From Planctomycetaceae bacterium (lineage in GTDB: Bacteria > Planctomycetota > Planctomycetia > Pirellulales > Thermoguttaceae), in assembly GCA_009778035.1 (NCBI GenBank), contig WRKP01000003.1, forward strand, positions 26,132 to 90,131: a stretch of DNA of 64,000 nt, given 5' to 3'. The notes beneath the pieces were generated by a model that saw nothing but the letters and a program-made list of their open reading frames with translations, was not told the origin of the DNA and made no database searches. The translations under genes were made by a program, and so were the position numbers. Positions 11,001 through 37,133 of the stretch are shown piece after piece; within the stretch, counting starts at the first letter, position 1; each line of letters starts with the position of its first letter.

Positions 11001-14000
11001 CCCGCCAGACCGCACCAGTATTGACCGAGTGATTCAGCGGCGGAGTCGGCGGCGGATTGTTGATGACGGAAAACGTTACCTGCCCTAGTTCAATCGCACT
11101 GGCGATGGCAGTGCTCGGAAGTCTTACATCTCCAGGACCACCTGTTCCGTCGTTCCAGCCGAGCAATCCCAGCCCAATCGGCTTGCCCGACCAGTTCCCG
11201 TTGAGGGCATCGAGCAACTCGTTGTAGGTCAAGTTTGCCGTATCGTCATACTGCACAACGAGCGTGTTTCCAACTCGGGAAATGGTCAGATCGCCCGGCG
11301 GATTGGTCGAAGCAACGGGGTCAAAATTGATGACCATCCCATCCCAACGCGGGTCGGAATGCGTAATCATCAAGTTTGCAATTTCTACAGCAACTGCACT
11401 TCCCGAATGACCAACAACCGCCGATTCGGACGATGCCAATCCGTCGATAGGCTTTGTTACGGTCGCCTCAATACCGTTGACATCCACCCAGCGCAGGTCA
11501 TCGCCCGCCGGTAACTGCGATGTCGGAATGGGACTGCCGTCGGGACGCGTCCACTGAGGCAGTTCAAGCCAAGTCGAATCATCCGTCGGGTTGAGGGGAT
11601 TTGCACTGCTGGCGGGATAAGCGGAATACAGAGCCCCGCGAGGATTGTTCAATGCGGCGAGAATCAGGTCATACGTCACCGGCGGCTGCGCCGTGCTGTT
11701 AATAATGACATTCACGGTTTTCCCGTCAAAGTTAATCACAATCGGCGGATGGTCTTCGGGATTTGTTGCCGACGGTGGGCTTGGGCCAGCGGCGACCGTC
11801 GTGAACTTAATATCGAGATTATCCCAGGACTTGTCGGTATGTTGCAAGTAAAGTCCGGTTGGGCCCTCGGGGCCTTGTATCGTACCGATGAGGTCGGATC
11901 GGCCGTCCAGCGAATGGGTGTAGGGGCGATAACTGCCTATCGTCGTCGAACTGACGAGCACCGTTGGGCGACCCGGAATATACTTGTCGCCCGCCGAATT
12001 CACGAACATCAACCCGCCCGCTTCCAGAATGTTTTCCGGTGTTACTCCAATGATGGGATCGTAGTTGGCGCCGATGCTGGTAGGATCGACAATGGTTGGG
12101 ATGTTCAGAGCGGCTGGCGTCGTTGTGTCCGCGTGATTGACAATCCGCCATCCGGCCCAGCCCGGCTGATTATCCATTCCATCAATACCGCCTCTATTTC
12201 CAGTCGGGTCGTTCAGCGCAGCGAGAATATCTTCATACCTTGTGTCGCTGTCGACTCGAATGGTAAGAATCCGGTTGCCGTCGTCGAATTCAATATCGAC
12301 GCTTCCGCCGGTGCGATCGCTTCGCTCAAAACGGAACGTAATCGCATCCCAATCATCGTTTGTATGTGCGAGGAACACATTATCGCCCATCGGGACACTC
12401 GTCCGTGCTTGGATTGTCCCGGAATTAATCGCGGGCAGTGTCCTGCTCGCAGAGGAACTCGTCCCAGTCGCGGGAACCGTGTTGAGCACGAACTGATTGC
12501 CTGGGGCTGTGGTGGGGAAGGTGAACGCCGCTGTTCCAGCGATAGCGGCTGGCCCCTGATAATCAACAAACGAAAATGGGTCAAATCGCGCTCCGCCGAC
12601 CGTTGCTCCGAAGCGGGTGTTCAGCGCATCGAGAACGTTTGCGTAGCTTGCCCCGGCTGCCACGGTAACATCGATTCGCATCGCGGAGTGATCGATATCG
12701 GCTGAATTTGTGGCACCGGCTGTAAAAACGATCGTGTATCCATTAAATTCAGGGCTGCTTTGGAGATACACGGGATTGGCATCGTCCGTGTGCATGTTCG
12801 TATTTGCCCGAAGCGGCGTCCCGTCAAAGACTTCTCCATCGGCTTTAATCCACGCAAATTCGGGCGGATCCACTCCCCTTCCAATTCCCGGCGGCAAGCC
12901 TGTCCAATTTTCAAGGGCGTTGAGAATATCGTCGTACGTCGCATGGTCATTGTACGAAACGGTAATCCTTCCGCTTCCGCTGGAATGGACATTCACGAAA
13001 GTCGTCGCCGGCGGTATCGACGTATGGACAAATTCAATCTGAATGTCATCCATTGCCGTGCTTCGGTGATGGAGGTACAAGGCCTCTCCGCTGATGCTTG
13101 TGAGCGGAGTGGTGCTTCTTCCGACGACGCCACCCATGGTTGAAGTGGCCAGCGACCTCGGTACGCCCGCGACAACTTCATCGCCGTTGGCATCCGACCA
13201 GTAAAAACTGCCGTAATGCGAAATGGATGCTTCCCTTGAAGCGGGCGGTTCTCCGTTTAAGGCACTCAGAATATCGTCGTAGGTTGCGTGTTCGCGAACA
13301 ACAACGTTTACCGTCTTGTTGGCGACATCGTACGCAACGTCTACCGGCGTTCCAACAATGGCGGGCGACTGAGCGAAATTGAACGTCCAGCCGTCCCAGT
13401 TGGCATCTGTGTGTGCCAGGTACATGCCATCGCCGACGGCTCTGAGCGTAACGCCGGGCTTTTCGGGAATGTCCGGCGTTTTGGGCATAAGGCCGTCCGG
13501 GGGCAACACGATGAAGAGCGACCCAGCCGCTCCGCCGCTTTGATGCGTGTTGCTCCTGACCGAATTCCCTGCCGCCGTGGCCGAAAGCGTGACGTCCGTC
13601 AGACTTTTCGCCCCAATGGAAGCATTTACCGAGAATCCATGGCCGGTATTGTTGTTCAGGAAGTTGAGGGCATCCTGGACATCGCGGAGTGTCGTATTTC
13701 CGTTGTTGTTATAGAAGATGGTGAGCGTTTTTCCGCCTGGAATGACGTTTCCGTAGGCGTCGAGTTGTTCGTTATATTGAGCGGAAGCAGCCCTTCCGCC
13801 GAGCGACGCATCGCCGGGACTGGCCGCCACGAATTGGATGGTAACATCATTGTAATCCGAACCCGTCGCGCGGGATTGAATGGAAAAGTATTCGTTCGCC
13901 GCCAAATTGCCGAATGCCAAGGCGGTATTGCTGACACCCATCGTGGCGTCAGACCCGGGAACGTAACCGAACAGTGCCGATGCCGCCTGGCCATGCTCGC

Positions 14001-15147
14001 TGTAGTAAGTGTAGGGCATGCCCGCCGTACCGGTCGGGTTGTCCGAAGAATAAAACCGGGGATCGGTCAGGGAACCATCCACGTAGTAGATGTTGGCATT
14101 GTTGTACTGGGCCCCTTCGATGTTGGCCTCGAATTTGAGGGCATTGTTGTCCCGAAGCGGTACGAGTTTGCCGTTGAGCATATACCAAGTCGTATCGACA
14201 TCATCGGCAAAGGCCGCCTGGTAGGCTTCCGTTTGCAGGTAAACCAAAATGTTGGCCGGCGCGCCGGGATAGAGCGGTTCTTCGTATTTGATTTGCACGC
14301 CTTCGGACGATCCCGGCAGGTATTTGAGTTGGACGTTGCCTTCGTTGAGGCCGGCGAGGCCCGCTTCGATGATAATGTCGTTATCCGGCCCGAGACTGCT
14401 GACGTAGAGCAGGCCTTTGAGGGCATCGGAGCCGACTTCGGCCACGACGCCGGTTCCATCGGAGCGTTTGTTGACGATTTCGGCAATTTCGGCAACGGTT
14501 GCACCTTTATCGAAGGTTTCCATGTCGAATCCGTAATTTCCGCCCCATTGCAGGACGATGGCCTCGGCCAGTGCGGGCTGGTTGTAGTACAGGGCGGCTT
14601 TTTCAGCGGCTTCGCGGACGTTGATGGTAACTTCGACCGGTTCCCGATTCGACCCGAAGGAGGCCTGATGAACGGACAAGCCCTGGAGGTTGTTGCGGTC
14701 GATGCCGACGAGGTTGAAATCGAGGGAGCCGTCGAGCAGTTTTTTGCCCATGAAGGTCGTTTGGGACGCAATCCGGTCGATGGCATCGAGGGATGCATCA
14801 ACCTGGAGTTGGTTGGCATAAATCATTTCGTGGCTCATCGTGCCGGTGCTGGCGGCTTCGGTGATAAGGCCCCGGATGTCATTGAGGAGATTGGTAACTT
14901 CGTTGAGGGCACTTTCCGCCGTGGCAATCATCATATTGGCCCGTTCGGTATTTCGGATGGCCATTTTGATCCCGGTGATGTCGGAGCGGAGCATTTCGCT
15001 GGCGATGAGACCGGCGGGATCGTCTTTACCGCTATTGATTTTGAACCCTGTGCTGAGTCGTTCCAGCGAGGTGGACAGGGCACTCATATTTTGATTGAGA
15101 TTTGCCCTTGCGACCATAGAAGGGACGTTGGTATAAATTCGTGTCAC
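8011..15147 (-). CDS. Giant flagellin (2,378 aa): canonical flagellin N- and C-terminal helical domains flanking a ~1,950-aa repetitive central region
   Basis: GTG start at 15147 preceded by AAGGAG (8-nt spacer). N-terminus MTRIYTNVPSMVARANLNQNMSALSTSLERLSTGFKINSGKDDPAGLIASEMLRSD. C-terminus RGRLGTMQRATLETNINVLNDTLGALTEAESQIRDTDFAEETSNMTRAQILVQANMNTLGIANQIPNYMLSLLGR. One uninterrupted ORF. Confidence 0.9.
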   Translation of the reverse strand: MTRIYTNVPSMVARANLNQNMSALSTSLERLSTGFKINSGKDDPAGLIASEMLRSDITGIKMAIRNTERANMMIATAESALNEVTNLLNDIRGLITEAASTGTMSHEMIYANQLQVDASLDAIDRIASQTTFMGKKLLDGSLDFNLVGIDRNNLQGLSVHQASFGSNREPVEVTINVREAAEKAALYYNQPALAEAIVLQWGGNYGFDMETFDKGATVAEIAEIVNKRSDGTGVVAEVGSDALKGLLYVSSLGPDNDIIIEAGLAGLNEGNVQLKYLPGSSEGVQIKYEEPLYPGAPANILVYLQTEAYQAAFADDVDTTWYMLNGKLVPLRDNNALKFEANIEGAQYNNANIYYVDGSLTDPRFYSSDNPTGTAGMPYTYYSEHGQAASALFGYVPGSDATMGVSNTALAFGNLAANEYFSIQSRATGSDYNDVTIQFVAASPGDASLGGRAASAQYNEQLDAYGNVIPGGKTLTIFYNNNGNTTLRDVQDALNFLNNNTGHGFSVNASIGAKSLTDVTLSATAAGNSVRSNTHQSGGAAGSLFIVLPPDGLMPKTPDIPEKPGVTLRAVGDGMYLAHTDANWDGWTFNFAQSPAIVGTPVDVAYDVANKTVNVVVREHATYDDILSALNGEPPASREASISHYGSFYWSDANGDEVVAGVPRSLATSTMGGVVGRSTTPLTSISGEALYLHHRSTAMDDIQIEFVHTSIPPATTFVNVHSSGSGRITVSYNDHATYDDILNALENWTGLPPGIGRGVDPPEFAWIKADGEVFDGTPLRANTNMHTDDANPVYLQSSPEFNGYTIVFTAGATNSADIDHSAMRIDVTVAAGASYANVLDALNTRFGATVGGARFDPFSFVDYQGPAAIAGTAAFTFPTTAPGNQFVLNTVPATGTSSSASRTLPAINSGTIQARTSVPMGDNVFLAHTNDDWDAITFRFERSDRTGGSVDIEFDDGNRILTIRVDSDTRYEDILAALNDPTGNRGGIDGMDNQPGWAGWRIVNHADTTTPAALNIPTIVDPTSIGANYDPIIGVTPENILEAGGLMFVNSAGDKYIPGRPTVLVSSTTIGSYRPYTHSLDGRSDLIGTIQGPEGPTGLYLQHTDKSWDNLDIKFTTVAAGPSPPSATNPEDHPPIVINFDGKTVNVIINSTAQPPVTYDLILAALNNPRGALYSAYPASSANPLNPTDDSTWLELPQWTRPDGSPIPTSQLPAGDDLRWVDVNGIEATVTKPIDGLASSESAVVGHSGSAVAVEIANLMITHSDPRWDGMVINFDPVASTNPPGDLTISRVGNTLVVQYDDTANLTYNELLDALNGNWSGKPIGLGLLGWNDGTGGPGDVRLPSTAIASAIELGQVTFSVINNPPPTPPLNHSVNTGAVWREITANDITNIFNLDHAMSRGSERAASLFNVTTTIDNDGTGAMRLYNYWIDRQGNFVGYQNHPNLPTGVVNLDYPNMSDKEIYDQYGLTLVHNKTAFENIFGGGVTGGAIVTTAAELITALNNSAFWGGIMCPDMIAELAAENAEGKYYDAGGLPPVITARLAPGNNGYFPVSTFEEVAYYGNPNEGTALQFLGGFNSPNIRFVVDGPNSELYLDRTTVPAVIGQSQAVLTAQDSGASLTITANKQGGEYDDVQFVFKRVGEDAEGVLAPDRRDGWVEYDPGSSFAYAQAVFRDAATNLPVPNSAFYITATERGDLFNDIDVVMRLDDNHTSPDPVTVRFDSATGQLRISIDSLRINELTTNDIIAAINNSSVDFKAELSYAEDPLNDGFGKLDGIGLSANQFRTIANTGNTGGHKGGTVTVWLADSNAGPGAPAGNNQVYSHPTQEDVVRLINNDPVVSRMFTARAYNTVQGSDGKVIDFVKDGPVLTNGGLISPAVITVHLATDKAGNVTTTAADLEAWWNTLDPALVDNVSVSVVRPAGAVWDDCDDPYGTGFLAPTIAYGDCDELIINDIMFVGWNDIAEQQHYVAKHSTGIMTSQRGIDSSYQLFARNLGPEWDGFTIEYINDLSLTGRFADNMVDGSDLNPCDDDVYSGLLRDDCGNLITPDSTVERGLRLVYDEASKKITVHVNFGTTTANDIQQLINSDPRTRNKFQISQLGNGTGLIHPDDDTLVTKGGAAPPGELNGAKLLFGSDATDYYLIFRSMDYGSDQYVEVRALPVEPGAQTTFSVSDANGKAQERSYGQDVDAMINGIRAVGTGLNVSLNTSQLSMTYTFSEHAGTYPGYSTGFTIAGGGATFQVGPDVVSRQQITMGIRSINTVQLGGVSGVLNQIRSGGDANLFDNPGKAFRIVDESLLAITSIRGRLGTMQRATLETNINVLNDTLGALTEAESQIRDTDFAEETSNMTRAQILVQANMNTLGIANQIPNYMLSLLGR

Positions 15148-18845: not shown

Positions 18846-19976
18846 TTACTCAATCGGCCGATCATAAATCCGATAGGTCTTCGTCCGAACGGCACCGCCC
18901 TTCTCGAGACTGCCCCTGGAGTACGCATTCGATTCCAAAACCCACGAAAACTCCGCATCGGTAATTCCGCTCTCCAAGACCTTCGGCACGAGGCCATTGA
19001 GCAACACCAAACCGAGCCCCAGCATCTGATATTCCGGCAACACATTCGTACTCAACACCCTAATTGCTTTAATTTGCTCCTTGCGGCGAAGCAGTTTGAA
19101 CAACCGAAGCGGCGAAATGCGGCCGCCGATTTCCTTGATCCGAGGATTGAAATCAGGAAGGGCAAACGACGCTCCTACCATCTTGCCGTCAACTTCGACG
19201 GCAACCGTTAATTCCGGCACGATCAAGTATTTCAGATAAAATGCCATCTCCTTGATTTCTTTGAGCGACATCGGCACGAAGCCCCAGGTGTTCGTCAAGG
19301 CCCTATTGTAAATATGCAAAAATTGCTCGACATCCCGTTGAAAATTCTTGACATCGACAGGCCGAATCGTCGCTCCGGTGCGGGCTTCGATTTGTTCGCA
19401 AATCGGCAAAAGTTTTTCGCGAATTTTGGGCAACATCCCGACTTCGCCCCAATAGGCATACAAATCTTGCGATTTGGTAAAGCCGTTATCCTCGAAAAGT
19501 TTTTCGTAATAGGGCGAATTATAGGTCATCATAAACATCGGCGAACTGTTGAATCCGTCGATAAGCAGTCCGAGCGTATGGTTCAGCGAGGGATTGATGG
19601 GGCCCCGAATCACGGAACAGCCGCGTTGCTTAAGCCAATCGGCAGCGGTATTGAAAAGCCCCTGTGCGGTATCGAGATCGTCAATGCAGTCGAAAAATCC
19701 GAGAAATCCGACGCCGTCGTTGTATCGGTCGATATGTCCTTTGTTCCAGATGGCACAGATTCGGCCAAGGACGTTTTTGCCGTCCAGGGCGATGAATGCT
19801 TGGCCTTCGTTGAATTCGTAAAAGGGGTCTTTGTTTCCCCAGGAGCGGAATCCGACGAGTCCGCTTTGTTCCATGCGCAGTTGGGGAATCCAGTAGGGAT
19901 CGTCTTGGTAGATTTTCCAGGGAAGATCCAAAAAGGCTTTTTGTTGCGTCCAGGTTTTGGCGGGAATGATCTGCAT
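18846..19976 (-). CDS. Conserved ~375-aa GNAT-like N-acyltransferase family protein
   Basis: N-terminus MQIIPAKTWTQQKAFLDLPWKIYQDDPYWIPQL is typical of a widespread uncharacterised acyl-CoA N-acyltransferase-fold family. The call is from memory of that N-terminal signature. Confidence 0.55.
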   Translation of the reverse strand: MQIIPAKTWTQQKAFLDLPWKIYQDDPYWIPQLRMEQSGLVGFRSWGNKDPFYEFNEGQAFIALDGKNVLGRICAIWNKGHIDRYNDGVGFLGFFDCIDDLDTAQGLFNTAADWLKQRGCSVIRGPINPSLNHTLGLLIDGFNSSPMFMMTYNSPYYEKLFEDNGFTKSQDLYAYWGEVGMLPKIREKLLPICEQIEARTGATIRPVDVKNFQRDVEQFLHIYNRALTNTWGFVPMSLKEIKEMAFYLKYLIVPELTVAVEVDGKMVGASFALPDFNPRIKEIGGRISPLRLFKLLRRKEQIKAIRVLSTNVLPEYQMLGLGLVLLNGLVPKVLESGITDAEFSWVLESNAYSRGSLEKGGAVRTKTYRIYDRPIE

Positions 19977-20140
19977 TATGCGTATATTCTAGTCGGTGGA
20001 CGGCGAAAAGCAAGATTGGCTCCGAGATGGGACATTATGGACATCTGGAGACGGACCTCTCTTGACGAAACGGAAAATTCAACTAGAATCGCATGCGGTC
20101 TGTTGGGATGGCGTCTAATTTGGCGGCATTCGGAGGCATT

Positions 20141-20212
20141 ACCTGGTGGTGTAATTGGCAACACAAGGGATTTTGGTTCCCTCGTTCTAGGTTCGAGTCC
20201 TAGCCGGGTAAA
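20141..20212 (+). tRNA. tRNA-Gln (anticodon UUG)
   Basis: Hand-folded cloverleaf. Acceptor TACCTGG/CCGGGTA with U1-A72 as in bacterial tRNA-Gln. D arm GTGT-AATTGGCA-ACAC. Anticodon arm AGGGA-TTTTGGT-TCCCT (anticodon TTG). V loop CGTT. T arm CTAGG-TTCGAGT-CCTAG. Discriminator A. CCA is not encoded. Confidence 0.9.
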
Positions 20213-20436
20213 TTTGCTGCAAAGTGGCGTAAAGCCAAAAACGGTGTAGTGTTACACCTACTTGGTGCTCCGGGTGTTACAAAAGTGTCGGGATTTCGGG
20301 TATTTGCGAGAAATTCCCTATAACTCGCAGTGACGTTAGGGAGTGCGAGAATGGGTAGAAGACGTACCGGAAAGCCCTATTTGCACAAGGCAAGCGGTAA
20401 GGCAATTATCTTGCTTCGCTGCGTGATTTTCATTTT

Positions 20437-21378
20437 TCACGTCCAGCCCAAGCGGATTTCGCCCTGACGGTTAGTGCTGCCAGGCCGTTGCAAACGCACT
20501 TCGCAACGAGGGCCGTTGCCTATGTAAAAACGGACAAGATCCAATAACTCCTGACGCCGCACTCCCTCTGAACTCGGCAAAAATTCCCGATACTGCGACA
20601 ATGTGAGATTTTCCAATCGCAACACAATACCCGCCGTTTGATTCCAAAATCGCCCGCCAAGCATTGCCGTTTCGCCCAAACGATGATTCGCCCTGCCCAA
20701 CTGCGTTCGGTCATGCTTTTCGACGACAAGCCATTGGCCATGAAATTCCTCAACCACCGCCTGCACGCCAAAACGTTCCGAAACGATTTTTTCCAGTCCC
20801 AGTGCCGTCTTCCGAACATTTGCAAACAGCACGGCATAGGGCAACAGCCGGGCACGTTGCGGTTGTTTTAGTTTTTCAGTCAGCAAACCGGCAACGGCAA
20901 ACAGGTATTCGGCAAACTCCGTCTCTGCCGGGTCGGTGGCCAATCCAGCACCGGGCCGCATCGGCTCCATCGCTCGATAAAAAAGCGAAATGAGCCGATG
21001 GTTAAATAAATCCAAAAAATCCTTCAGAGCGGTATCGCCGATTCGGCTGCGTTCCAAAATCAATTCGGTCATCGGCGGCGGCATCGGGCCGTGCGCTCCG
21101 GCCAGGCCGAGAAAGTTGATGGACAAACACGGTTTTTCATCATCCGTGATCGCTTGAATATCGCTGGCGGGAAAGTTTTGCGAAATATGCGAGGCGAACC
21201 GAAATTGCTCGCGATCAGGACTGGCCGCGGCGATGCTGGCCGTAGCGATTTCGGCCTGCGGCGATGATTCCGCGTGCAAAATACGGACGGCTTGCCAAAA
21301 GTCGAACGCCCAAGGTTCACGGCGGAATTGTTCGGCCAGACTCAAATTTTTGGCCGTATTCCGAAATTCGGTTTCCAT
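20437..21378 (-). CDS. tssG: Type VI secretion baseplate subunit TssG
   Basis: EPWAFDFWQAVRILH hallmark (FDFFQAVRLLE type). 313 aa. Overlaps the tssF 3' end by 37 nt, as in canonical clusters. Confidence 0.85.
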   Translation of the reverse strand: METEFRNTAKNLSLAEQFRREPWAFDFWQAVRILHAESSPQAEIATASIAAASPDREQFRFASHISQNFPASDIQAITDDEKPCLSINFLGLAGAHGPMPPPMTELILERSRIGDTALKDFLDLFNHRLISLFYRAMEPMRPGAGLATDPAETEFAEYLFAVAGLLTEKLKQPQRARLLPYAVLFANVRKTALGLEKIVSERFGVQAVVEEFHGQWLVVEKHDRTQLGRANHRLGETAMLGGRFWNQTAGIVLRLENLTLSQYREFLPSSEGVRRQELLDLVRFYIGNGPRCEVRLQRPGSTNRQGEIRLGWT

Positions 21379-23213
21379 AATTTATAAGGCTCTTCGCTGG
21401 TTGTATTTTTCCAAGTCATCTCCGTCGGCGTGTTCAGGTCGGCATACATTCGGAAAAATGTATTCATCACTTCGGCGAATAAATACGCACTGGAGCCGTT
21501 AAAAAACGATTCGTCAAGCGTCAACTCGATTCCGATGCCGTTTGCAAACCCCCGCCACGGGACATTGCCCATTCGCCGAACGATGGGTTTAATGTGAATA
21601 TCTTTCAGGCCTTGCAGTTGGCGTTGCATCGCCGTATCTTCCGGCTGCACGTACAACCGCAGTATTTCCCGAAGGGCTGCCGCCCCGTTTTCTCCTTCAA
21701 GCGAAAGGTAGTTCAGGGATAGATGCGAAATGAGCATCCATAGCGACCGTCCTCCCATTGCCGGCGTCTGCGAAAGCGTCGGTTTTGCGATCAAAAACAC
21801 TGCCGAGCAGGGGATTTCCGTTTCGCACTCAAGCCGGATCCCCGCCGGAGCCTCCGCGGCAAAATGCCGATTCGTGCAAAGCAGCCGGGCAAAGGCCGTT
21901 CGGGACTTGACGCGGTTGACCCGAAATTCAGAATCGACGAATCGTAGCCAAACATCCGTACCGGGTATCCCGCCCGACGCGGGTGTTCGTTCCATAACCC
22001 AGTACGATTTCGCGTTTTCTGGTTTTTCCGGCTCGGTATTGCGCGGCGTGAAAAACGGCTCCAGCGGAACCGTATCGCCGCGTTCCGGGTCAATGACCGA
22101 AACCGTTTCAATCGAATGAATTTCCGTGCTGGCATTGCGTCGGGCATCCCCCAACAGCCGGTATTCGCTCTTCGTTTCGTTCAAATCGACGGGCTCCGAA
22201 ATTTTTGCAAACAAATTCAGGGCTGGCGTTGCGTGAAGCCGAAACATATCCGGGGAGATGAATAATCCCTGCGAATCAATCGCAAGCGGGATGAGCACAT
22301 CGAGCCTGTTGAGGGGGCAATCTTGCGTCAACGGAGCGATGTGTTTTTGCAAGTTGATTTCAATATCCCAAAACAGGAATCGTTCGGGAAAAGCGAGGTA
22401 TTCCTGCAAAAGTTGGTATGCCGGAATTGCGTGTTGCCCTTTCGGCAAGACGAGTTCCTCCGGCAACAAACCGGCCGGGCGGAGCGCTTCCGAATGGAGC
22501 GGGATGGCGATCTTTTTCCAGTCATCATCGGGATTATCCAGTTCGATCCCCAATTTGTGCAGCAAGACTTTTTCGTAGACTTTATACGTTTCGAGCCGGT
22601 CGCCCTTCAGGAAAATCCGCAGTGTTTTAAGATTGCAATTTTGCAAAGGCACCGAATCGCTGGCCAATCCCAGCCGCAAAACGGAAATGGCACTGCGGCC
22701 TGTACCGGAAAAATGGTATTGGTTGGCCGGCTGGAAATCGGCCCTGACGATACGGATCGGATAAATCGTTACCGGCCAGGCGGTTTTCCATTTGATCGCA
22801 AGTTCATCCCCAGCGTGTTGGGATTCGTCGAATGCGTTGCATCCCAGCATCGTGCCTGCCGGAATTATTGCACCGTCGGCCAACTCGGAACGTTTGGCGT
22901 CGGGCTGGAATTCGACGATACCGAGCGAGGGAATCGGTGCGGTGAAATTCGGGTACAACGCACCGAGCAGGGCGGTTGAAATCTGCGGCAGCCGGGCATC
23001 GACGGAGTAACGGATTCGGCCTGCGAGCCAAGCGAAGGACTCGATTAAGCGTTCGGTGAAGGGGTCCGGCGAAACGTCTTCGGTAAGTTCGAGTTGGGCG
23101 GCAATTCGGGGGTGTTTTTGTGCAAATTCCGCACCGGACTTGCGGAGATACGCGAGTTCGCTTTGATAGTATTCGCGGAGCAGTTGTTCATTATCGTGCG
23201 TATTCATAGGCAA
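21342..23213 (-). CDS. tssF: Type VI secretion baseplate subunit TssF
   Basis: N-terminus LLREYYQSELAYLRKSGAEFAQKHPRIAAQL (TssF/ImpG signature). 623 aa. Confidence 0.9.
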   Translation of the reverse strand: MPMNTHDNEQLLREYYQSELAYLRKSGAEFAQKHPRIAAQLELTEDVSPDPFTERLIESFAWLAGRIRYSVDARLPQISTALLGALYPNFTAPIPSLGIVEFQPDAKRSELADGAIIPAGTMLGCNAFDESQHAGDELAIKWKTAWPVTIYPIRIVRADFQPANQYHFSGTGRSAISVLRLGLASDSVPLQNCNLKTLRIFLKGDRLETYKVYEKVLLHKLGIELDNPDDDWKKIAIPLHSEALRPAGLLPEELVLPKGQHAIPAYQLLQEYLAFPERFLFWDIEINLQKHIAPLTQDCPLNRLDVLIPLAIDSQGLFISPDMFRLHATPALNLFAKISEPVDLNETKSEYRLLGDARRNASTEIHSIETVSVIDPERGDTVPLEPFFTPRNTEPEKPENAKSYWVMERTPASGGIPGTDVWLRFVDSEFRVNRVKSRTAFARLLCTNRHFAAEAPAGIRLECETEIPCSAVFLIAKPTLSQTPAMGGRSLWMLISHLSLNYLSLEGENGAAALREILRLYVQPEDTAMQRQLQGLKDIHIKPIVRRMGNVPWRGFANGIGIELTLDESFFNGSSAYLFAEVMNTFFRMYADLNTPTEMTWKNTTSEEPYKLWKPNFGIRPKI

Positions 23214-23234: not shown

Positions 23235-23735
23235 TCATTCCGAATAAAAACAGCCATCCTCGTCTTGTACAACTCCGAATGTTACTAAAAAGCCCTCGCC
23301 CAGTCCGTGGAGTTCCGCTTCGATCGAAATTCCTGCCCGAAACTTCACCGAAGCAATGTCGCGACCAAACACGTCGGTCGCACTGCGTATTCCCAAAAAA
23401 GGATTGGCGGAAAACTCATTCGCCGTGCCCGGCCGGTCTCGGAAAAAACGCTCCGGCGATGTGCCCGAAAGGTCAACCGAACGCACCGACACATTCTTTA
23501 GCCGCGGCTCGAATGCCGCAATCGTTCGTCCCAACTCGCCCGCAAGATCGGTGTCGTTTCCATCCGGCAAACCGTAATCGAGGACTGTCAATTCGGCATC
23601 GGGCTCGACATTCACACTGCGTCGGGTATTGAGCAGCCAAAGCAAATCCCGAAAGACGGACTCTCGGTATTGCTCCGGCGTGAGACTGCCGCTGCCGATG
23701 AAACGGTCTAATAATGATGGGGCGTTACCGGTCAT
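23235..23735 (-). CDS. tssE: Type VI secretion baseplate subunit TssE (gp25-like)
   Basis: SLLDRF...FRDLLWLLNTRR...VLDYGLPD...IAAFEPRL pattern of the GPW/gp25 family. 166 aa. Confidence 0.8.
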   Translation of the reverse strand: MTGNAPSLLDRFIGSGSLTPEQYRESVFRDLLWLLNTRRSVNVEPDAELTVLDYGLPDGNDTDLAGELGRTIAAFEPRLKNVSVRSVDLSGTSPERFFRDRPGTANEFSANPFLGIRSATDVFGRDIASVKFRAGISIEAELHGLGEGFLVTFGVVQDEDGCFYSE

Positions 23736-23768: not shown

Positions 23769-24266
23769 CTACGAGGCCAACTTCCCTTGCGACAGGTCGT
23801 ATCCCGCAGCGGCATTGCCCGCGGAACCGCCTTCGTTCTTCTGCTTCATGTAGGCAATTTCAATCTTCGAATAGTTCATCGACACCGTCTCGCCCGGCAA
23901 ATCGCCGCCGCCCGATATGTTGTAACTCGAAATGACAACATTGCTCAACTTGATTTCCAAGTATGCCAACAGCGGTGCGCTGCCGTCCTGCGCCTCGCTC
24001 CGGCAAAGCGTCAGAACCACATTCGGGATCGTCTTTCCTTCCCAAAGCCTTTGGCAAATCGACGGCGAGGATATGTCAAAACGTTTGGAAAGCGACAGGT
24101 CTGAACATTGCGGTCTCGCGACCGTTCCGCCGCCTTCCGAACTCCGAAGGGCCGACGTCGGCTGCGAAAAGTCGAGCGAAAAGGAATAGATTTCGATCTG
24201 TTCCTCGTAGCCGGATACGGTACATTCGCCCTTAATGTCATCTATTTTCAGGAACATGCTTTGCAT
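23769..24266 (-). CDS. hcp: Type VI secretion tube protein Hcp (TssD)
   Basis: MQSMFLKIDDIKGECTVSGYEEQIEIYSFSLDFSQP is an Hcp1-family N-terminus. 165 aa. Confidence 0.85.
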   Translation of the reverse strand: MQSMFLKIDDIKGECTVSGYEEQIEIYSFSLDFSQPTSALRSSEGGGTVARPQCSDLSLSKRFDISSPSICQRLWEGKTIPNVVLTLCRSEAQDGSAPLLAYLEIKLSNVVISSYNISGGGDLPGETVSMNYSKIEIAYMKQKNEGGSAGNAAAGYDLSQGKLAS

Positions 24267-24370: not shown

Positions 24371-26353
24371 TTATGCGGCCGGCGGCGGGAGTTCGGCAAC
24401 GAGCCGAATACTGACCGTCAACTCTTCCATCTGGAAATGCGGACGCAAAAATACGACTGCCTTGAATACGCCCGGCTTGCCCGGGACTTCGGCAACATCG
24501 ACGCGGGCTTCCCGGAGCGGAAACTTCGCTTTCACTTCCTGCGGAGCATCGTCGGAAAGAAGAACGTAATTGGATATCCAATTATTCAGATACGACGAAA
24601 CATTTTCTGCCGAAAGGAAACTGCCGACCTTATCCCGCATGATCGCTTTGATGTAGTGTGCAAACCGCGACGCATTGAGCAAATAGGGCAAAATGGCGGA
24701 AAGTCGGGCATTGGCATTGGCCGAATCCAGGTTATAAATCGGCGGTTTGTTCGTCGTTTGGCCTCCGAAAAAGACGGCGTAATCCGTTCCTTTGCAGTAC
24801 ACGAGGGGCAGGAAGCCCAGCGTCGAAAGTTCTTTTTCCCGTCTGTCCGTGATGGCAATTTCCGTGGGGCATTTGACGATGGTTTCGCCGTCATCGGTTC
24901 GGAATGCATGCACCGCCAAGCCGCGGACATCGCCGCCGCCTTCGAGACCGCGAATGGCAGCCGTCCAACGGTGTTTCGCGAAGGCTGCCGTGATTCGTTC
25001 GGCCAAGGCCCAACCGGCACTGCCCCAAAGGTATTTTTCGTGCAATTTGCCGTCAACGTCTTCCTGGAAATCGAATTCCTCAATCGGGCTGGTTGCCGGC
25101 CCGTAGGGCAAACGCATCAAAATATGCGGCAAACAGAACGTAACATAACGCGAATCATCGCTTTCCCGAAACGACCGCCATTTGATCAGTTCGGAACTCT
25201 CGAACAGTTTCGTCAAATCTCGGGGATTGGCAAGTTCCGTGAAACTTTCCATATCGAACATTTTCGGCGAGACGGGCAAAATGGCCGGTGCGTGCGCCGC
25301 GGCGGCGACTTCGGCAAGTTTCTCCAGCAATTTCATATCCTGCGGATGCCGACCAAACTCGAAATCGCAGAGCAAAGCACTGTACGGAGCACCACCGAAG
25401 GTCCCGTATTCCTCTTCGTACACTTTTTTGAACAGTTGGCTCTGGTCAAACTCGACCGCTTTCTCCAAATCGTCCTGGAGTTCTTTTCGGGAAACGTTAA
25501 ATACCCGTAATTTGAGCATTTCGCCGGTTTCCGTTTGCATCACGAGATAATGCAGGCCTCGCCATGCCGCTTCAAGACGCTGGAATTCGGGAGCGTGCAT
25601 GATTTCGTTTAATTGAGTCGAAAGCATCACGTCAATTTCCTTGATTCGCACCATAATCAAGGAAATGCAGTCCAGCGTCGCATTCGGGTCATCCGACAGT
25701 TTGACGTTCCCGGCAATCAGTTGCTCCGCCAACTCCGCAAGCATCTTTTTCGCGTAGGGGATTTGCGACGGGTCTTTAACCATTTTGGCGTCGGTCAAGA
25801 GCGATTCGACGAGACTGTCGGCTTCGATCGTTTCATCGGGTTCCGCATCCAACGCTCCCTTGGTTTCGGTCTGGAGTGCGGTCTGTTTGGCCGAATCTTG
25901 AAAAATGTCTTGAAACAGGGCATCAAGTTTGTCGTTTCCGTCAATTTTCGCCGTCAGGTCGATGAGGCGTTGCCTTGAATCGAACAGGCTGCTTAATTCG
26001 GGAACTTGCCGAACAACACGGATCGGCGTGAAGTCATCCATTGATTTGAAGGCCAACGAGACGGCCAACTTGCTGGCTTCGGCATCGGGCGTCAGTTTGC
26101 CGGCAACGGTCAATTCAAGATGCGGGCTGAAGGCCGACAGAACGTCGTTGAGGTTGTCCCTGTCGATGTTGACGAATTTGCGATCTTTCAGGGGCCCGAA
26201 GGGAGAGGCACGGTGCGAAGAGAAATCGCCGATAATTCCCAGCACGAAGGGGAGTTGTTTCATTACGATGGCGCCTCCGACTTCGACATCGTAGGTGATT
26301 TGTACTCGAGGGGGCCGAACTCGGCTCAACTTATGTTGGATGCTTTCTGGCAT
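24371..26353 (-). CDS. tssBC: Fused type VI secretion contractile sheath protein TssB-TssC (single 660-aa polypeptide)
   Basis: aa 1-~165 are TssB/VipA-like (MPESIQHKLSRVRPPRVQITYDVEVGGAIVMKQLPFVLGIIGDFS...DGNDKLDALFQDI). From aa ~167 the sequence is a full-length TssC/VipB (LNEIMHAPEFQRLEAAWRGLHYLV at aa ~250 ... FKAVVFLRPHFQMEELTVSIRLV). There is no stop codon or frame change between the parts. Confidence 0.9.
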   Translation of the reverse strand: MPESIQHKLSRVRPPRVQITYDVEVGGAIVMKQLPFVLGIIGDFSSHRASPFGPLKDRKFVNIDRDNLNDVLSAFSPHLELTVAGKLTPDAEASKLAVSLAFKSMDDFTPIRVVRQVPELSSLFDSRQRLIDLTAKIDGNDKLDALFQDIFQDSAKQTALQTETKGALDAEPDETIEADSLVESLLTDAKMVKDPSQIPYAKKMLAELAEQLIAGNVKLSDDPNATLDCISLIMVRIKEIDVMLSTQLNEIMHAPEFQRLEAAWRGLHYLVMQTETGEMLKLRVFNVSRKELQDDLEKAVEFDQSQLFKKVYEEEYGTFGGAPYSALLCDFEFGRHPQDMKLLEKLAEVAAAAHAPAILPVSPKMFDMESFTELANPRDLTKLFESSELIKWRSFRESDDSRYVTFCLPHILMRLPYGPATSPIEEFDFQEDVDGKLHEKYLWGSAGWALAERITAAFAKHRWTAAIRGLEGGGDVRGLAVHAFRTDDGETIVKCPTEIAITDRREKELSTLGFLPLVYCKGTDYAVFFGGQTTNKPPIYNLDSANANARLSAILPYLLNASRFAHYIKAIMRDKVGSFLSAENVSSYLNNWISNYVLLSDDAPQEVKAKFPLREARVDVAEVPGKPGVFKAVVFLRPHFQMEELTVSIRLVAELPPPAA

Positions 26354-26672: not shown

Positions 26673-26858
26673 CCTCAAACGTCAAACGAGGCAGTATTAA
26701 CGCAAGAATATGACGGATGTGCCAAATATACCGTTTTGCGTTAATGCTCTTTTTGTACCGGCAATGATTATTCTAACAAGCGATGGCCGTTTGAGCCGAA
26801 TAAAATAGATATTAGTGTCGTGAGGGTTCCGAATCCGCAAAAAGGAAGCCGCCATCCT

Positions 26859-27347
26859 ATGTTACACCGTACCATCTCTCTTACCGTAATTGCTTCGATT
26901 GCCCTAACCCTGGCGTTTTCGGGCTGTGCGAGTATGACGGAAAGGACAGATAGGGTGCGCACGGTGTTCGTCAACGACGTAAAGATTCGTGTTTCGTTGC
27001 CGCCGGAAGGGAATGAACGGACGGGCATAGCGGTCGATTTTTTGACGGTACACAATGCGGAACTTGCCGCAAAATTGATGGAAACCGATGCGAAAACGTG
27101 GTTTTCGGCCAAAAATCAGTTCAAAAACGATTATACGGCAGGCAAGGATTTCGACATTGAGGAGCGTGAGTATGCACCGGGCAGTTTTGTGCGTCCGGTA
27201 GAGTTGCCGTGGCGGAGTCGCCGGACGGTATTGTTGATTTATGCGGATTACAGGAGTCCGGGTCCGCATCGATTTCGGGCGAATCAGCGGCAGGAATTGA
27301 TTCTCACGCTCGGCGAAAAGGAGTTCAGCGTCGTGCCGAAGAATTGA
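26859..27347 (+). CDS. Lipoprotein, TssJ-like (candidate T6SS outer-membrane lipoprotein)
   Basis: ATG at 26859 with AAGGAAG upstream. Lipobox LAFSGC. ~160 aa. The pattern IAVDFLTVHN..L......F....... and LLIYADYRSPGPHRFR resembles the TssJ pattern (VRVYQL..F..ADF ... GVVAAYRD...WR). Divergent from tssBC. Confidence 0.45.
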   Translation: MLHRTISLTVIASIALTLAFSGCASMTERTDRVRTVFVNDVKIRVSLPPEGNERTGIAVDFLTVHNAELAAKLMETDAKTWFSAKNQFKNDYTAGKDFDIEEREYAPGSFVRPVELPWRSRRTVLLIYADYRSPGPHRFRANQRQELILTLGEKEFSVVPKN

Positions 27348-28369: not shown

Positions 28370-29815
28370 ATGAAAATTAGACCGCAATCTTTCGTTTTTT
28401 GCTGGTTGTTTCTCTGTGCGATGACGTTCCTGTTTATCGGGTCTGCGTCGTTGTTTGCGCAGGAGGACGACCCAGCGACACCGCCGGCGACACCCGCAAC
28501 GCCGGCAGCGCCCGGGGTAGGGGCGGCTGGTGCCCTTACTCAGCCGACGCAGGGCGGTATTCGCATTGATGCCCGCGGCGTCGTTGCCCGTATTGCCAAC
28601 CAAGATTTCGGACGCCTCACCGCCCAACAACTCAATGCCGCCCGAACGGCCTACACGCTTTCCGATGACATTTCCGCCAAAAGTCCGATGCGCTGCATCA
28701 GTCTGAACCGAATGGAAAAAAGTATCATCGAATCCGGCGGAATCGTTACCGACGAGATGAAATATCTTGCCGGTATTCAACGCATTACGCACGTGTTTTA
28801 CTTTCCCGATTCCAAAGACATCGTCGTTGCGGGTCCTGCCGAAGGTTGGTTTCCGGGCTACGAAGGCGCGATGATCGGCATCGAGTCCTTGCAGCCGGTC
28901 TGCGAATTGCAGCATTTGATTACCGCCCTGCGAGCCTTTGGGCCGAATACGGAAGGGCCCGGCCTCGTAACCTGCTCCATCGACCCGACTGCGGAGGGCA
29001 ATGTGCGGCTGCAGCAGTTTTTATCCCGTTCCATCGGCTTGAATACCCGGCGGTTCGTCGAAGGAGTCAGCCGAAGCCTTGGAATGCAAGTTATTACGGT
29101 CGATGGGATTCCCGAAACGACGCATGCCGCCCAAATGATGGTCGCTGCCGATTACCGAATGAAACGCATCGCCCTCGGCCTCGATACATTGCGTGTTCCC
29201 GGCTTGCAGACGTTTATTGCGAATACCGCCCCAAATGCCCCGAATGCGCTGTTCCGTTGGTACTTCGTGCCGGATTATGATTCCGTGATTATGACGCCAG
29301 ACCGGACGGCCATGCAGTTAGTCGGCGACGCTGTTCGGCTGATTGGCGAGAATGAACTCGTCAGTGAGACGGGCGAGCGGAGTACGATGGGCGGCGAATT
29401 GGATCCCGGCAGCCGGGCATTTACCGAGAGTTTCACAGAGCATTATCCGCAAATTGCCCGACAGGCGTTGGTTTTTGCCCAACTGCGGAATTGGATTGAT
29501 ATGCTGATTTGTGCGGCTCATATCCATCAGGAAGATTTTTATGCTCGGTCTGGCTGGTCGATGGAGTTTTTCGGCTGCGAAGAGAAATTTCCGTTGGAGA
29601 CCTTCACAGCGGCTCGTGAGGTTGCTCCGGTCGTTGCGACGCGTTCGGTTGGCCGATTAACGGTCGCGCCGGTCGGCGGCGGAATTGAAATCCAAGCGGA
29701 ATTGGCCCTGTCCGATGAGCACGCGCAGCCGGACAGAGACGGCAACGTCGCGGAGCAGCGGAATCAAATTTCGCTGAATCTGCCCGAGGGCGTGTGGTGG
29801 TGGGACGTTAAGTAA
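28370..29815 (+). CDS. Secreted protein, DUF1598-like (planctomycete-type)
   Basis: Signal peptide, then a PATPPATPATPAAP linker, then GGIRIDARGVV...MRCISLNRMEKSI, which I recall as characteristic of DUF1598. No catalytic motif seen. Confidence 0.5.
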   Translation: MKIRPQSFVFCWLFLCAMTFLFIGSASLFAQEDDPATPPATPATPAAPGVGAAGALTQPTQGGIRIDARGVVARIANQDFGRLTAQQLNAARTAYTLSDDISAKSPMRCISLNRMEKSIIESGGIVTDEMKYLAGIQRITHVFYFPDSKDIVVAGPAEGWFPGYEGAMIGIESLQPVCELQHLITALRAFGPNTEGPGLVTCSIDPTAEGNVRLQQFLSRSIGLNTRRFVEGVSRSLGMQVITVDGIPETTHAAQMMVAADYRMKRIALGLDTLRVPGLQTFIANTAPNAPNALFRWYFVPDYDSVIMTPDRTAMQLVGDAVRLIGENELVSETGERSTMGGELDPGSRAFTESFTEHYPQIARQALVFAQLRNWIDMLICAAHIHQEDFYARSGWSMEFFGCEEKFPLETFTAAREVAPVVATRSVGRLTVAPVGGGIEIQAELALSDEHAQPDRDGNVAEQRNQISLNLPEGVWWWDVK

Positions 29816-36842: not shown

Positions 36843-36967
36843 GGTCGGTTCTTCTTACATGAGGGGTTTGCGGTGGGCGAAATGTCAACCGGTCTATGAG
36901 GTTATGGCAAATGGGAAGCGATTTGCGACAGGGAGCGGGGAGGATTTTTTTTTGCGTCAAATTAAAG

Positions 36968-37072
36968 AGCCGGGGGCGTCAGCCCGCGGGTTGGTTCGAC
37001 GTAGATTTGTTCGATAGACTCACCCGGGGGCTAACGCCCCCGGCTCTTGCGTGCACTTGCTCGTGCCCCCGG
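36968..37072. repeat. Family B composite element (two hairpins plus spacer, inverted orientation)
   Basis: AGCCGGGGGCGTCAGCCCGCGGG-TTGGTTCGACGTAGATTTGTTCGATAGACTCA-CCCGGGGGCTAACGCCCCCGGCTCTTGCG. The spacer is roughly the reverse complement of the spacers at 40052-40088 and 44838-44869. Confidence 0.85.
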
Positions 37073-37073
37073 G

Positions 37074-37101
37074 TTGACACCGCAAGCAAATATGGTAAAA
37101 A
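37074..37101 (+). promoter_or_regulatory. Possible sigma-70-type promoter of the DUF1559 gene
   Basis: Perfect TTGACA (37074-37079), a 16-nt spacer, then TGgTAAAAA. An AGGAG SD (37121-37125) and the ATG at 37134 follow. Confidence 0.4.
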
Positions 37102-37133
37102 GGGACCTTTCCAACCAAATAGGAGTATCAACC

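What the first reader, a model, noticed from the sequence alone, without database searches (positions are those of the whole stretch)
24371..26353. TssB and TssC fused end to end into a single-chain T6SS sheath protein
Seen: a 660-aa ORF. Residues 1-~165 are a complete TssB/VipA (ESIQHKLSRVRPPRVQITYDVEVGG ... DGNDKLDALFQDIF). From ~167 onwards the sequence is a complete TssC/VipB: the APEFQRLEAAWRGLHYLV motif sits at aa ~250-270 of the fusion, leaving about the same length of sequence ahead of the motif as I recall for stand-alone TssC. No stop or frame change separates the two parts (junction near nt 25850-25900). Established: in canonical T6SS the sheath is a heterodimer of two separate proteins, and the ClpV disassembly ATPase docks on the free N-terminal helix of TssC. 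Phage, pyocin and eCIS sheaths are single chains. Inference: the fusion enforces 1:1 stoichiometry and buries the TssC N-terminus behind TssB, which fits the absence of clpV from this locus and suggests a different recycling mechanism. I do not recall such a fusion being characterised.
Basis: partly seen in the sequence, partly recalled or inferred. Interest (0 to 1): 0.8.

Follow-up and report, generated by a model that had tools for sequence, protein, structure and literature searches.

The report
Naturally fused single-chain T6SS sheath protein
This planctomycete encodes the two proteins of the type VI secretion "sheath" as one continuous chain; the fusion is real and conserved, but similar fusions have arisen many times in other bacteria (including Pseudomonas aeruginosa, next to the recycling ATPase ClpV), so it is an uncharacterised variant of a known machine rather than evidence for a new recycling mechanism.

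Summary
ORF 24371-26353 (-) encodes 660 aa: a full-length TssB (aa 6-165), a ~15-aa acidic linker (aa 166-180), then a full-length TssC (aa 180-656). It is not an artefact. Eight or more independent planctomycete assemblies (75-89 % identical) carry the same uninterrupted fusion, with linkers differing only by in-frame indels.

It is not unique. At least 114 database clusters (90 % identity) are simple TssB-TssC fusions, in Planctomycetes and in Alpha-, Beta- and Gammaproteobacteria. A TssC tree shows the fusions are polyphyletic (at least 10 state changes). The planctomycete clade nests among ordinary split genes of Desulfovibrionales type. In the nearest of these, tssB and tssC are in frame with one stop codon between them, so one substitution would fuse them.

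The ClpV interpretation is not supported. P. aeruginosa PA99 has a fused sheath gene with clpV in the same operon-like cluster. The nearest split relatives also lack clpV in their clusters. The ClpV-docking helix is retained behind a flexible linker. The window also lacks tssA/K/L/M and vgrG, so absence here is uninformative.

Only a different fusion (1,684-aa TssCL of roseobacters) was found in the literature. Verdict: real, recurrent, uncharacterised variant; moderate interest.

The parts
24371..26353 (-). tssBC: single ORF of 660 aa encoding the fused T6SS sheath protomer
   Evidence: ORF. Full-length TssB and TssC profile matches. Identical protein P0001 in an NCBI Planctomycetaceae MAG.
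25859..26353 (-). TssB (VipA) module, aa 1-165
   Evidence: TIGR03358 at aa 6-165, profile 1-158/160. 57.5 % identical to D. senezii stand-alone TssB. aa 1-31 have low pLDDT, as expected for the inter-subunit strand in a monomer model.
25814..25858 (-). Linker, aa 166-180 (GALDAEPDETIEADS): acidic, predicted coil
   Evidence: Lies between the two profile matches. pLDDT falls to ~60 and DSSP assigns coil at 170-180. Length and sequence vary among fused orthologues, but the linker is always in frame and stop-free.
24374..25813 (-). TssC (VipB) module, aa 181-660, beginning with the conserved N-terminal helix (aa 181-188, LVESLLTD) that corresponds to the ClpV-docking helix
   Evidence: TIGR03355 at aa 180-656, profile 3-473/473. 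64 % identical to the A. vinelandii TssC chain 9n4v_A over the Foldseek-aligned columns. Helix and alignment.
23769..24266 (-). hcp (tssD), tube protein
   Evidence: PF05638, E 8.3e-35.
23235..23735 (-). tssE (gp25-like baseplate wedge)
   Evidence: PF04965, E 1.8e-9. TIGR03357 gives 49.4 bits, just under its cutoff of 53.2.
21342..23213 (-). tssF
   Evidence: PF05947, E 2.9e-162. TIGR03359 matches full length.
20437..21378 (-). tssG; last T6SS gene of the cluster in this window
   Evidence: PF06996, E 1.8e-77. TIGR03347 gives 255 bits.
26820..27347 (+). Divergent candidate TssJ-like lipoprotein (lipobox LAFSGC)
   Evidence: 49 % identity (E 6e-56) to the gene upstream of the Thermoguttaceae fused tssBC, and 34 % (E 6e-20) to the equivalent 158-aa gene of the PA99 cluster. 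Not recognised by Pfam or NCBIfam, so the assignment is tentative.

Best explanation
The ORF encodes a functional single-chain T6SS sheath protomer. SHOWN: it consists of a complete TssB, a short flexible acidic linker and a complete TssC. It replaces separate tssB and tssC genes at the head of a tssBC-hcp-tssE-tssF-tssG cluster. The fused state has been kept through substantial divergence in a planctomycete lineage (Planctomycetaceae/Thermoguttaceae MAGs). INFERRED ORIGIN: adjacent tssB and tssC of a Desulfovibrionales-type, clpV-less T6SS cluster fused in situ, through loss of the tssB stop codon and trimming of the charged TssB tail and the intergenic codons. This route is one mutation away wherever the two genes share a frame, and it has been taken independently in many lineages. 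INFERRED FUNCTION: the chain folds like the TssB/TssC heterodimer. The TssB N-terminal strand and the TssC C-terminal strand still make the inter-protomer 'handshake', and the linker simply bridges two termini that are flexible or unresolved on the sheath surface. The sheath would then assemble and contract as usual, with 1:1 stoichiometry and co-folding built in. Recycling is not necessarily changed: the TssC N-terminal docking helix is intact and accessible behind the linker.
For: Domain completeness. Not an artefact: fused orthologues P0002-P0007 and loci L004, L005, L006 and L087, from different MAGs and samples, are 81-89 % identical in the TssC part, with no internal stops and with linkers of 15-21 aa differing by in-frame indels. 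There is no conserved internal start codon. No homopolymer occurs at the junction, and the other frames are closed. In-situ origin: ranked by TssC, the 7 nearest full-length hits are the fused planctomycete clade and the next 100 or more (65-74 %) are all split. The clade has 100 % bootstrap and sits among split P0043/P0081/P0127/P0135. The TssB half also ranks D. senezii split TssB (57.5 %) above other fused lineages (48-53 %). Gene order matches that subfamily. One-step route: in D. senezii, tssB and tssC are in frame with one stop plus 10 codons between them, and 36 of 147 split loci have exactly one in-frame stop between the genes. Recurrence: 114 fused clusters among the top hits, 15 maximal all-fused groups of which 6 have bootstrap >=90, and a Fitch minimum of 10 changes. 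Structural tolerance: the AlphaFold model has pLDDT 76.9 and pTM 0.71, with a coil at 170-180 and a helix at 181-188. It matches TssC and TssB chains of solved sheaths. Solved contracted sheaths lack the TssB C-terminal ~30 residues and the TssC N-terminal ~50 residues, that is, the two ends being joined (coverage). C-terminal sfGFP tags on TssB are functional (and general knowledge). Compatibility with ClpV: the PA99 cluster.
Against: There is no expression, assembly or activity data for any simple fused sheath. In this window the cluster stops after tssG, and tssA/K/L/M, vgrG and clpV are not within 64 kb. The system could therefore be split across the genome or be a remnant, although all six genes are intact. 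Deep nodes of the NJ tree are weakly supported (bootstrap 2-30 around the planctomycete clade), so the exact sister group and the exact number of fusion events are uncertain. The monomer AlphaFold model does not test assembly into a sheath.
Confidence: 0.8

Rival explanations
1. One reading: the fusion buries the TssC N-terminus, prevents ClpV docking and goes with loss of ClpV and a different sheath-recycling mechanism (ClpB, another unfoldase, or single-shot use).
For: No clpV or clpB is present in the 64-kb window. None was found in the available parts of the fused planctomycete, Thalassomonas or Bacterioplanes clusters. Of the loci of at least 15 kb, 4 of 6 fused loci show no ClpV, against 26 of 69 split loci (tiny and non-independent sample).
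Against: P. aeruginosa PA99 has fused TssBC plus ClpV in one cluster. The nearest split relatives lack clpV in their clusters too, so the trait is older than the fusion. The docking helix is conserved and preceded by a flexible linker. In stand-alone TssC the docking peptide is already internal, at residues 15-35. The genomes could not be searched as a whole, so clpV may be encoded elsewhere.
Confidence: 0.1
2. Artefact: two ordinary genes joined by a sequencing or assembly error that removed the stop codon or introduced an indel.
For: The window comes from a metagenome-assembled genome. A single substitution would be enough where the genes share a frame.
Against: The same fusion occurs in at least 8 independent assemblies of the clade, with diverged linkers that are in frame and stop-free. 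An identical fused protein occurs on 24 or more P. aeruginosa contigs, including complete genomes. No homopolymers occur at the junction.
Confidence: 0.02
3. Decaying remnant: the fused gene belongs to a truncated, non-functional T6SS cluster, and the fusion is a tolerated read-through in a gene no longer under selection.
For: The cluster in the window ends after tssG and is followed by unrelated genes, whereas the Thermoguttaceae relative continues with vgrG-PAAR-like-tssK-tssL-tssM.
Against: All six T6SS ORFs are intact with full-length profile matches. The TssC part is 81-89 % identical to orthologues, indicating purifying selection. In the Thermoguttaceae relative the fused gene sits in a full cluster. 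Scattered T6SS loci also occur in other fused-sheath genomes.
Confidence: 0.08

Closest known systems
Canonical T6SS(i) sheath heterodimer TssB/TssC (VipA/VipB, HsiB/HsiC). Nearest solved structure: Azotobacter vinelandii extended sheath-tube complex, PDB 9n4v
   Same: Both modules are complete and highly similar: phmmer of the TssC part against 9n4v_A gives E 6e-212 (64 % identity over the Foldseek-aligned columns), and the TssB part against 9n4v_B gives E 9e-45. The neighbourhood is the same (hcp, tssE, tssF, tssG). The N-terminal TssC helix is conserved.
   Different: One polypeptide instead of two. The lysine/aspartate-rich C-terminal tail of TssB, the stop codon and the intergenic region are replaced by a 15-aa acidic linker. 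Every solved T6SS sheath in the PDB is two-chain.
Simple TssB-TssC fusions in other bacteria (e.g. the P. aeruginosa PA99 683-aa protein, Thalassomonas viridans 646 aa, Bacterioplanes sanyensis 647 aa, Holosporaceae ~690 aa). These are annotated only as 'sheath large subunit' and are uncharacterised.
   Same: Same B-linker-C architecture, replacing the separate genes. Same downstream order hcp-tssE-tssF-tssG.
   Different: They are independent fusion events: 60-64 % identical in the TssC part, less than the 73 % to the nearest split TssC. Linkers range from about 0 to 80 aa (one outlier of ~176 aa). The PA99 cluster includes clpV.
TssCL of roseobacter-clade symbionts (Suria et al. 2022, Front Microbiol, PMC9515649)
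   Same: It is the only published natural fusion of TssB and TssC domains found in the searches. It was also identified in silico only.
   Different: TssCL is 1,684 aa with two VipA domains and one divergent VipB domain. It coexists with normal tssB and tssC in the same cluster and was reported only in Alphaproteobacteria. Here the fusion is a simple 1:1 replacement of both genes.
Single-chain sheaths of phage tails, R-pyocins and extracellular contractile injection systems
   Same: One polypeptide per sheath protomer. The core fold is shared (a weak Foldseek hit to the eCIS chain 6j0n_V, E 5e-3).
   Different: No detectable sequence relationship. The fusion here is a secondary joining of T6SS-type TssB and TssC nested within split T6SS lineages, not a retained ancestral single chain.

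Membership tests
TssB / VipA (T6SS sheath small subunit) | Full-length match to curated TssB models above their cutoffs | tested here: met
   TIGR03358 equivalog: 167.1 bits (cutoff 97.25), aa 6-165, profile 1-158/160. PF05591: E 4.9e-50.
TssC / VipB (T6SS sheath large subunit) | Full-length match to curated TssC models, including the C-terminal gpW/gp25-like domain | tested here: met
   TIGR03355 equivalog: 659.7 bits (cutoff 271.5), aa 180-656, profile 3-473/473. PF05943 and PF18945 also match.
T6SS sheath (TssBC) | Fold of the sheath protomer | tested here: met
   AlphaFold model with pLDDT 76.9. Foldseek probability 1.00 to the TssC chains of 9n4v, 5n8n, 5urw, 3j9g, 5mxn and 3j9o, and to the TssB chains of 5n8n, 5ojq and 5mxn.
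T6SS sheath (TssBC) | Encoded in a T6SS gene cluster with tube and baseplate genes | tested here: met
   hcp, tssE, tssF and tssG lie directly downstream. A TssJ-like gene lies upstream.
Complete T6SS(i) (13 core genes) | Presence of tssA, tssK, tssL, tssM, vgrG and clpV | tested here: not met
   None was detected anywhere in the 64-kb window by tblastn with Thermoguttaceae, D. senezii and PA99 proteins or by Pfam on the other ORFs. The rest of the genome could not be searched. In the Thermoguttaceae relative, vgrG, tssK, tssL and tssM are contiguous with the fused gene.
T6SS sheath (TssBC) | Polymerises around Hcp, contracts and is recycled | not testable with these tools
   Needs microscopy, cryo-EM or secretion assays.
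ClpV-recycled sheath | N-terminal TssC helix that docks the ClpV N-domain, with a cognate clpV | tested here: inconclusive
   The helix is present and conserved (aa 181-188). No clpV is seen in the window or in the clusters of the nearest split relatives.
TssCL (roseobacter long sheath protein, PMC9515649) | About 1,700 aa, two VipA domains plus one VipB domain, coexisting with separate tssB and tssC | tested here: not met
   660 aa with one VipA, one VipB and one VipB_2 domain. No separate tssB or tssC in the cluster.

The most novel reading that the evidence does not exclude
In the clpV-less T6SS subfamily to which this cluster belongs (Desulfovibrionales-type relatives and the fused planctomycete clade), contracted sheaths would be recycled by something other than a dedicated ClpV, for example a housekeeping ClpB as in Francisella, or not recycled at all. 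Covalent linkage of TssB to TssC would be an adaptation to that regime, for instance by keeping the two halves together after unfolding or by preventing loss of one partner.
Probability: 0.1. Interest if true: 0.7.

Novelty: new variant of a known kind. Interest (0 to 1): 0.4.

Why it matters
Textbooks and all solved structures describe the T6SS sheath as an obligate two-protein heterodimer. These data show that nature has repeatedly made it a single chain, in at least six well-supported independent lineages across at least two phyla. One of these is in the experimentally tractable pathogen P. aeruginosa. That has three uses. First, it gives a natural test of whether a covalent B-C link is compatible with assembly, contraction and ClpV-driven disassembly. 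Second, it offers ready-made single-chain sheath designs for structural work and engineering. Third, it warns annotators, because these proteins are labelled only as 'large subunit' and such genomes look as if they lack tssB. It does not, on present evidence, reveal a new recycling mechanism.

Tried and rejected
(1) P. aeruginosa H4-T6SS as the home of the fused Pseudomonas gene. Rejected: the published H4 has separate tssB4 and tssC4, with hcp4 upstream.

(2) Treating every tblastn match covering residues 1-660 as a fusion. Rejected after the ORF check: about 70 of the 80 genome loci have an in-frame stop or a frame change between tssB and tssC.

(3) Internal translation restart at TTG-168, which is preceded by AAGGGAG. 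Rejected: the feature is not conserved in the four fused orthologues.

(4) Walking beyond the window and beyond the Thermoguttaceae locus to find clpV. The left flank, from another assembly (L086), holds no T6SS genes. The right-end protein is not on record. The TssM fragment search found nothing and used the last protein search.

(5) A metagenome scan for more planctomycete fused loci gave only one short contig, L087.

(6) Curated TssJ models do not recognise the upstream ORF.

(7) Literature searches for a simple natural TssB-TssC fusion returned only GFP tags and the roseobacter TssCL.

(8) A single origin for all fusions is rejected by nearest-neighbour identities and by the tree.
Full report
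OBSERVATION. The ORF listing gives a single ORF at 24371..26353 on the minus strand (660 aa, ATG start). Pfam finds T6SS_VipA at aa 10-164 (profile 2-154/155, E 4.9e-50), VipB at aa 236-534 and VipB_2 at aa 545-655. The NCBIfam equivalog models match end to end: TssB (TIGR03358) at aa 6-165, profile 1-158/160, and TssC (TIGR03355) at aa 180-656, profile 3-473/473, both far above their cutoffs. The linker is aa 166-180 (GALDAEPDETIEADS; nt 25814-25858). No homopolymer lies near the junction, and the two other frames are closed by 19-21 stops.

CONTEXT IN THE WINDOW. Downstream on the same strand lie hcp (23769-24266), tssE (23235-23735), tssF (21342-23213) and tssG (20437-21378). Upstream and divergent lies a small lipoprotein-like ORF (26820-27347). 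It is 49 % identical to the gene in the same position in a Thermoguttaceae cluster and 34 % identical to the equivalent gene of the P. aeruginosa PA99 cluster. Curated TssJ models do not recognise it. After tssG come unrelated genes: a GNAT-like gene, an acyltransferase, a TPR protein, a peptidase and a 2,378-aa flagellin. tblastn with TssA/K/L/M, VgrG and ClpV from three related clusters finds nothing anywhere in the 64 kb, and Pfam on the remaining ORFs shows housekeeping and planctomycete-typical genes. clpV is therefore absent, but so is half of the core machinery, and the absence cannot be read as a property of the sheath.

IS THE FUSION REAL? The identical protein is on record from an NCBI Planctomycetaceae MAG (P0001). 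Six further full-length clusters (P0002-P0007, 75-82 % identical overall and 81-89 % in the TssC part) come from ENA, Logan, JGI and NCBI assemblies, and all carry the three domains. At the DNA level, loci L004 (Thermoguttaceae MAG), L005 and L006 (Planctomycetaceae MAGs) and L087 (metagenome contig) each have one uninterrupted ORF of 676-686 aa. Their linkers differ in sequence and length (15-21 aa), yet they are always acidic, in frame and stop-free. A possible internal TTG start seen in the window is not conserved. A sequencing artefact is excluded, and the fused chain is what selection has maintained.

HOW COMMON IS IT? A full-length search returned 114 fused clusters (640-816 aa) among the 120 best hits. 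They include proteins from complete genomes of P. aeruginosa (683 aa), Thalassomonas viridans and Bacterioplanes sanyensis, a draft genome of Oceanobacter mangrovi (955-kb contig), and many Holosporaceae and other alphaproteobacterial MAGs. tblastn joins adjacent genes, so every fetched locus was checked for an uninterrupted ORF. Eight of 78 classifiable species-representative genome loci and 3 of about 79 metagenome loci are truly fused; the rest are split. With the TssB part alone against 1.84 billion cluster representatives, roughly 5 % of the best 150 hits are long enough to be fusions. The fusion is a minority state but far from unique.

ONE ORIGIN OR MANY? Ranked by the TssC part alone, the seven nearest full-length hits are the fused planctomycete clade. 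The next 100 or more (65-74 %) are ordinary ~485-aa TssC proteins from Desulfovibrionales, Rhodospirillales, Desulfobacterales and others. The fused proteobacterial proteins are more distant (58-64 %). In an NJ tree of 198 TssC cores with 100 bootstraps there are 15 maximal all-fused groups, six of them with support of at least 90 %. The planctomycete group has 100 % support and lies among split sequences (P0043, P0081, P0127, P0135). Fitch parsimony needs at least 10 changes. Deep nodes are weak, so the count is approximate. Even so, for the planctomycete, P. aeruginosa and Thalassomonas groups the nearest split TssC is clearly closer than the nearest outside fused one: 73 vs 66 %, 75 vs 69 % and 70 vs 65 %. 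The TssB half tells the same story. The fusions are secondary and recurrent, not a retained ancestral single chain.

HOW DOES IT ARISE? In the nearest split relative, Desulfobaculum senezii, tssB and tssC are in the same frame with exactly one stop codon and ten sense codons between them (...KEKPAKK*PHAPQPVRESAMSPEND...). In 36 of the 147 split loci the two genes are likewise separated by a single in-frame stop (the sample is biased by how loci were ranked, so this shows availability, not frequency). One substitution can therefore create a fusion. In the planctomycete clade the charged TssB tail and the intergenic codons have since been trimmed to a short acidic linker.

WHY IS IT TOLERATED? 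The AlphaFold model (72-sequence alignment, pLDDT 76.9, pTM 0.71) shows the TssB C-terminal helices (to aa 169), a low-confidence coil (aa 170-180), then a confident short helix (aa 181-188) that starts the TssC module. The only long low-confidence stretches at the termini are aa 1-31 and 641-660, the strands that pair with neighbouring protomers in assembled sheaths. Foldseek matches TssC and TssB chains of all solved T6SS sheaths, always as separate chains. By sequence, no PDB entry spans both halves. In contracted-sheath models the deposited chains stop short of the TssB C-terminus and start about 50 residues into TssC (coverage), so the two ends being joined are flexible. C-terminal sfGFP fusions to TssB are functional (for example TssB4-sfGFP; also general knowledge of VipA-sfGFP). 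A short linker between these ends should therefore not disturb assembly. This last step is inference.

THE ClpV ARGUMENT. Four results count against it.
- In P. aeruginosa PA99 the fused gene heads tssBC-hcp-tssE-tssF-tssG-clpV (849 aa, Clp_N + two AAA modules), with tssJ-like, tssK, tssL, tssM, tssA and a sigma-54 activator on the other strand. The identical protein is on 24 or more contigs.
- The three nearest split relatives (D. senezii, Maridesulfovibrio zosterae, P0127) share the order tssK-L-M-A-B-C-hcp-E-F-G-(x)-vgrG with no clpV in the cluster. The clpV-less layout therefore predates the fusion.
- The N-terminal TssC helix is conserved in all fused lineages (LVESLLTDAKM here, LLDEIIAKGRM in PA99).
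- In EAEC the ClpV N-domain binds TssC1 residues 23-35 as a peptide in a groove (PMC5048182). Docking does not need a free terminus, and stand-alone TssC already has 15-25 residues ahead of the helix.
Whether this planctomycete has clpV elsewhere could not be determined.

LITERATURE. Searches for natural fusions found only sfGFP tags and one in-silico report, TssCL of roseobacter symbionts. TssCL is 1,684 aa, with two VipA domains and one divergent VipB domain, and it coexists with normal tssB and tssC (PMC9515649). That architecture is different. The fused P. aeruginosa cluster does not match the published H4-T6SS, which has separate tssB4 and tssC4. Reviews state that T6SS sheaths are made of two proteins (for example PMC9230969).

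VERDICT. This is a real, conserved single-chain TssB-TssC sheath protomer. It is one of many independent fusions of adjacent sheath genes, and it most likely works like the canonical heterodimer with stoichiometry built in. It is an uncharacterised variant of a known machine. The proposed link to loss of ClpV is not supported. Interest is moderate (0.4): the recurrence of the fusion and its presence in a tractable pathogen make it directly testable.

Noticed in passing
window 8011-15147 (-): A 2,378-aa ORF with Flagellin_N only at aa 4-141 and Flagellin_C only at aa 2292-2376. This is a giant flagellin with an unannotated central region of about 2,150 aa.
   Followed up: no
L001 (P. aeruginosa PA99, CP042967.1, 6,341,037-6,363,088) and L002: A complete T6SS cluster with a fused 683-aa TssBC and an adjacent ClpV in P. 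aeruginosa. The identical protein occurs on 24 or more contigs. The layout differs from the published H4-T6SS (separate tssB4/tssC4, hcp4 upstream), so this may be a further accessory T6SS not described in the papers read.
   Followed up: partly
window 18846-21378, compared with L085 7594-13632: The T6SS cluster in the window stops after tssG and is followed by GNAT-like and acyltransferase genes. The Thermoguttaceae relative continues with x-vgrG-DUF4280(PAAR-like)-tssK-tssL-tssM. The window holds none of these, which implies a split or rearranged T6SS locus.
   Followed up: partly
L084 9395-10150, and 36 of the 147 split loci in L009-L166: tssB and tssC often lie in the same frame with exactly one stop codon between them. 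Each such locus is one substitution away from a fusion. tblastn aligns straight through these stops, which can make split genes look fused.
   Followed up: yes
window 26763-27347 (+): The TssJ-like lipoprotein candidate is missed by the Pfam and NCBIfam TssJ models. Its homology to the Thermoguttaceae gene begins 57 nt upstream of the first ATG/GTG/TTG of the ORF, and the relative is much longer (292 aa). The start or the N-terminus of this gene is therefore uncertain.
   Followed up: partly
L167 10001-12145; locus of P0078 (no DNA held): In some alphaproteobacterial (Holosporales-like) genomes the fused tssBC stands among housekeeping genes (priA, dnaN). It is accompanied by one or two small ORFs or just a tssE, so the T6SS genes are scattered.
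   Followed up: no
window 57061-58788 (+): An FHA-GAF-PP2C (SpoIIE) phosphatase. FHA and PP2C proteins regulate some T6SSs post-translationally, but this gene is 30 kb from the cluster and no link was tested.
   Followed up: no
window 36896-38359 and 43614-44768 (+): DUF1559 proteins with N-terminal prepilin-type methylation motifs, plus a DUF1598 protein at 28370-29815. These families support the planctomycete origin given by the NCBI record for P0001 (that they are typical of Planctomycetes is from memory).
   Followed up: no
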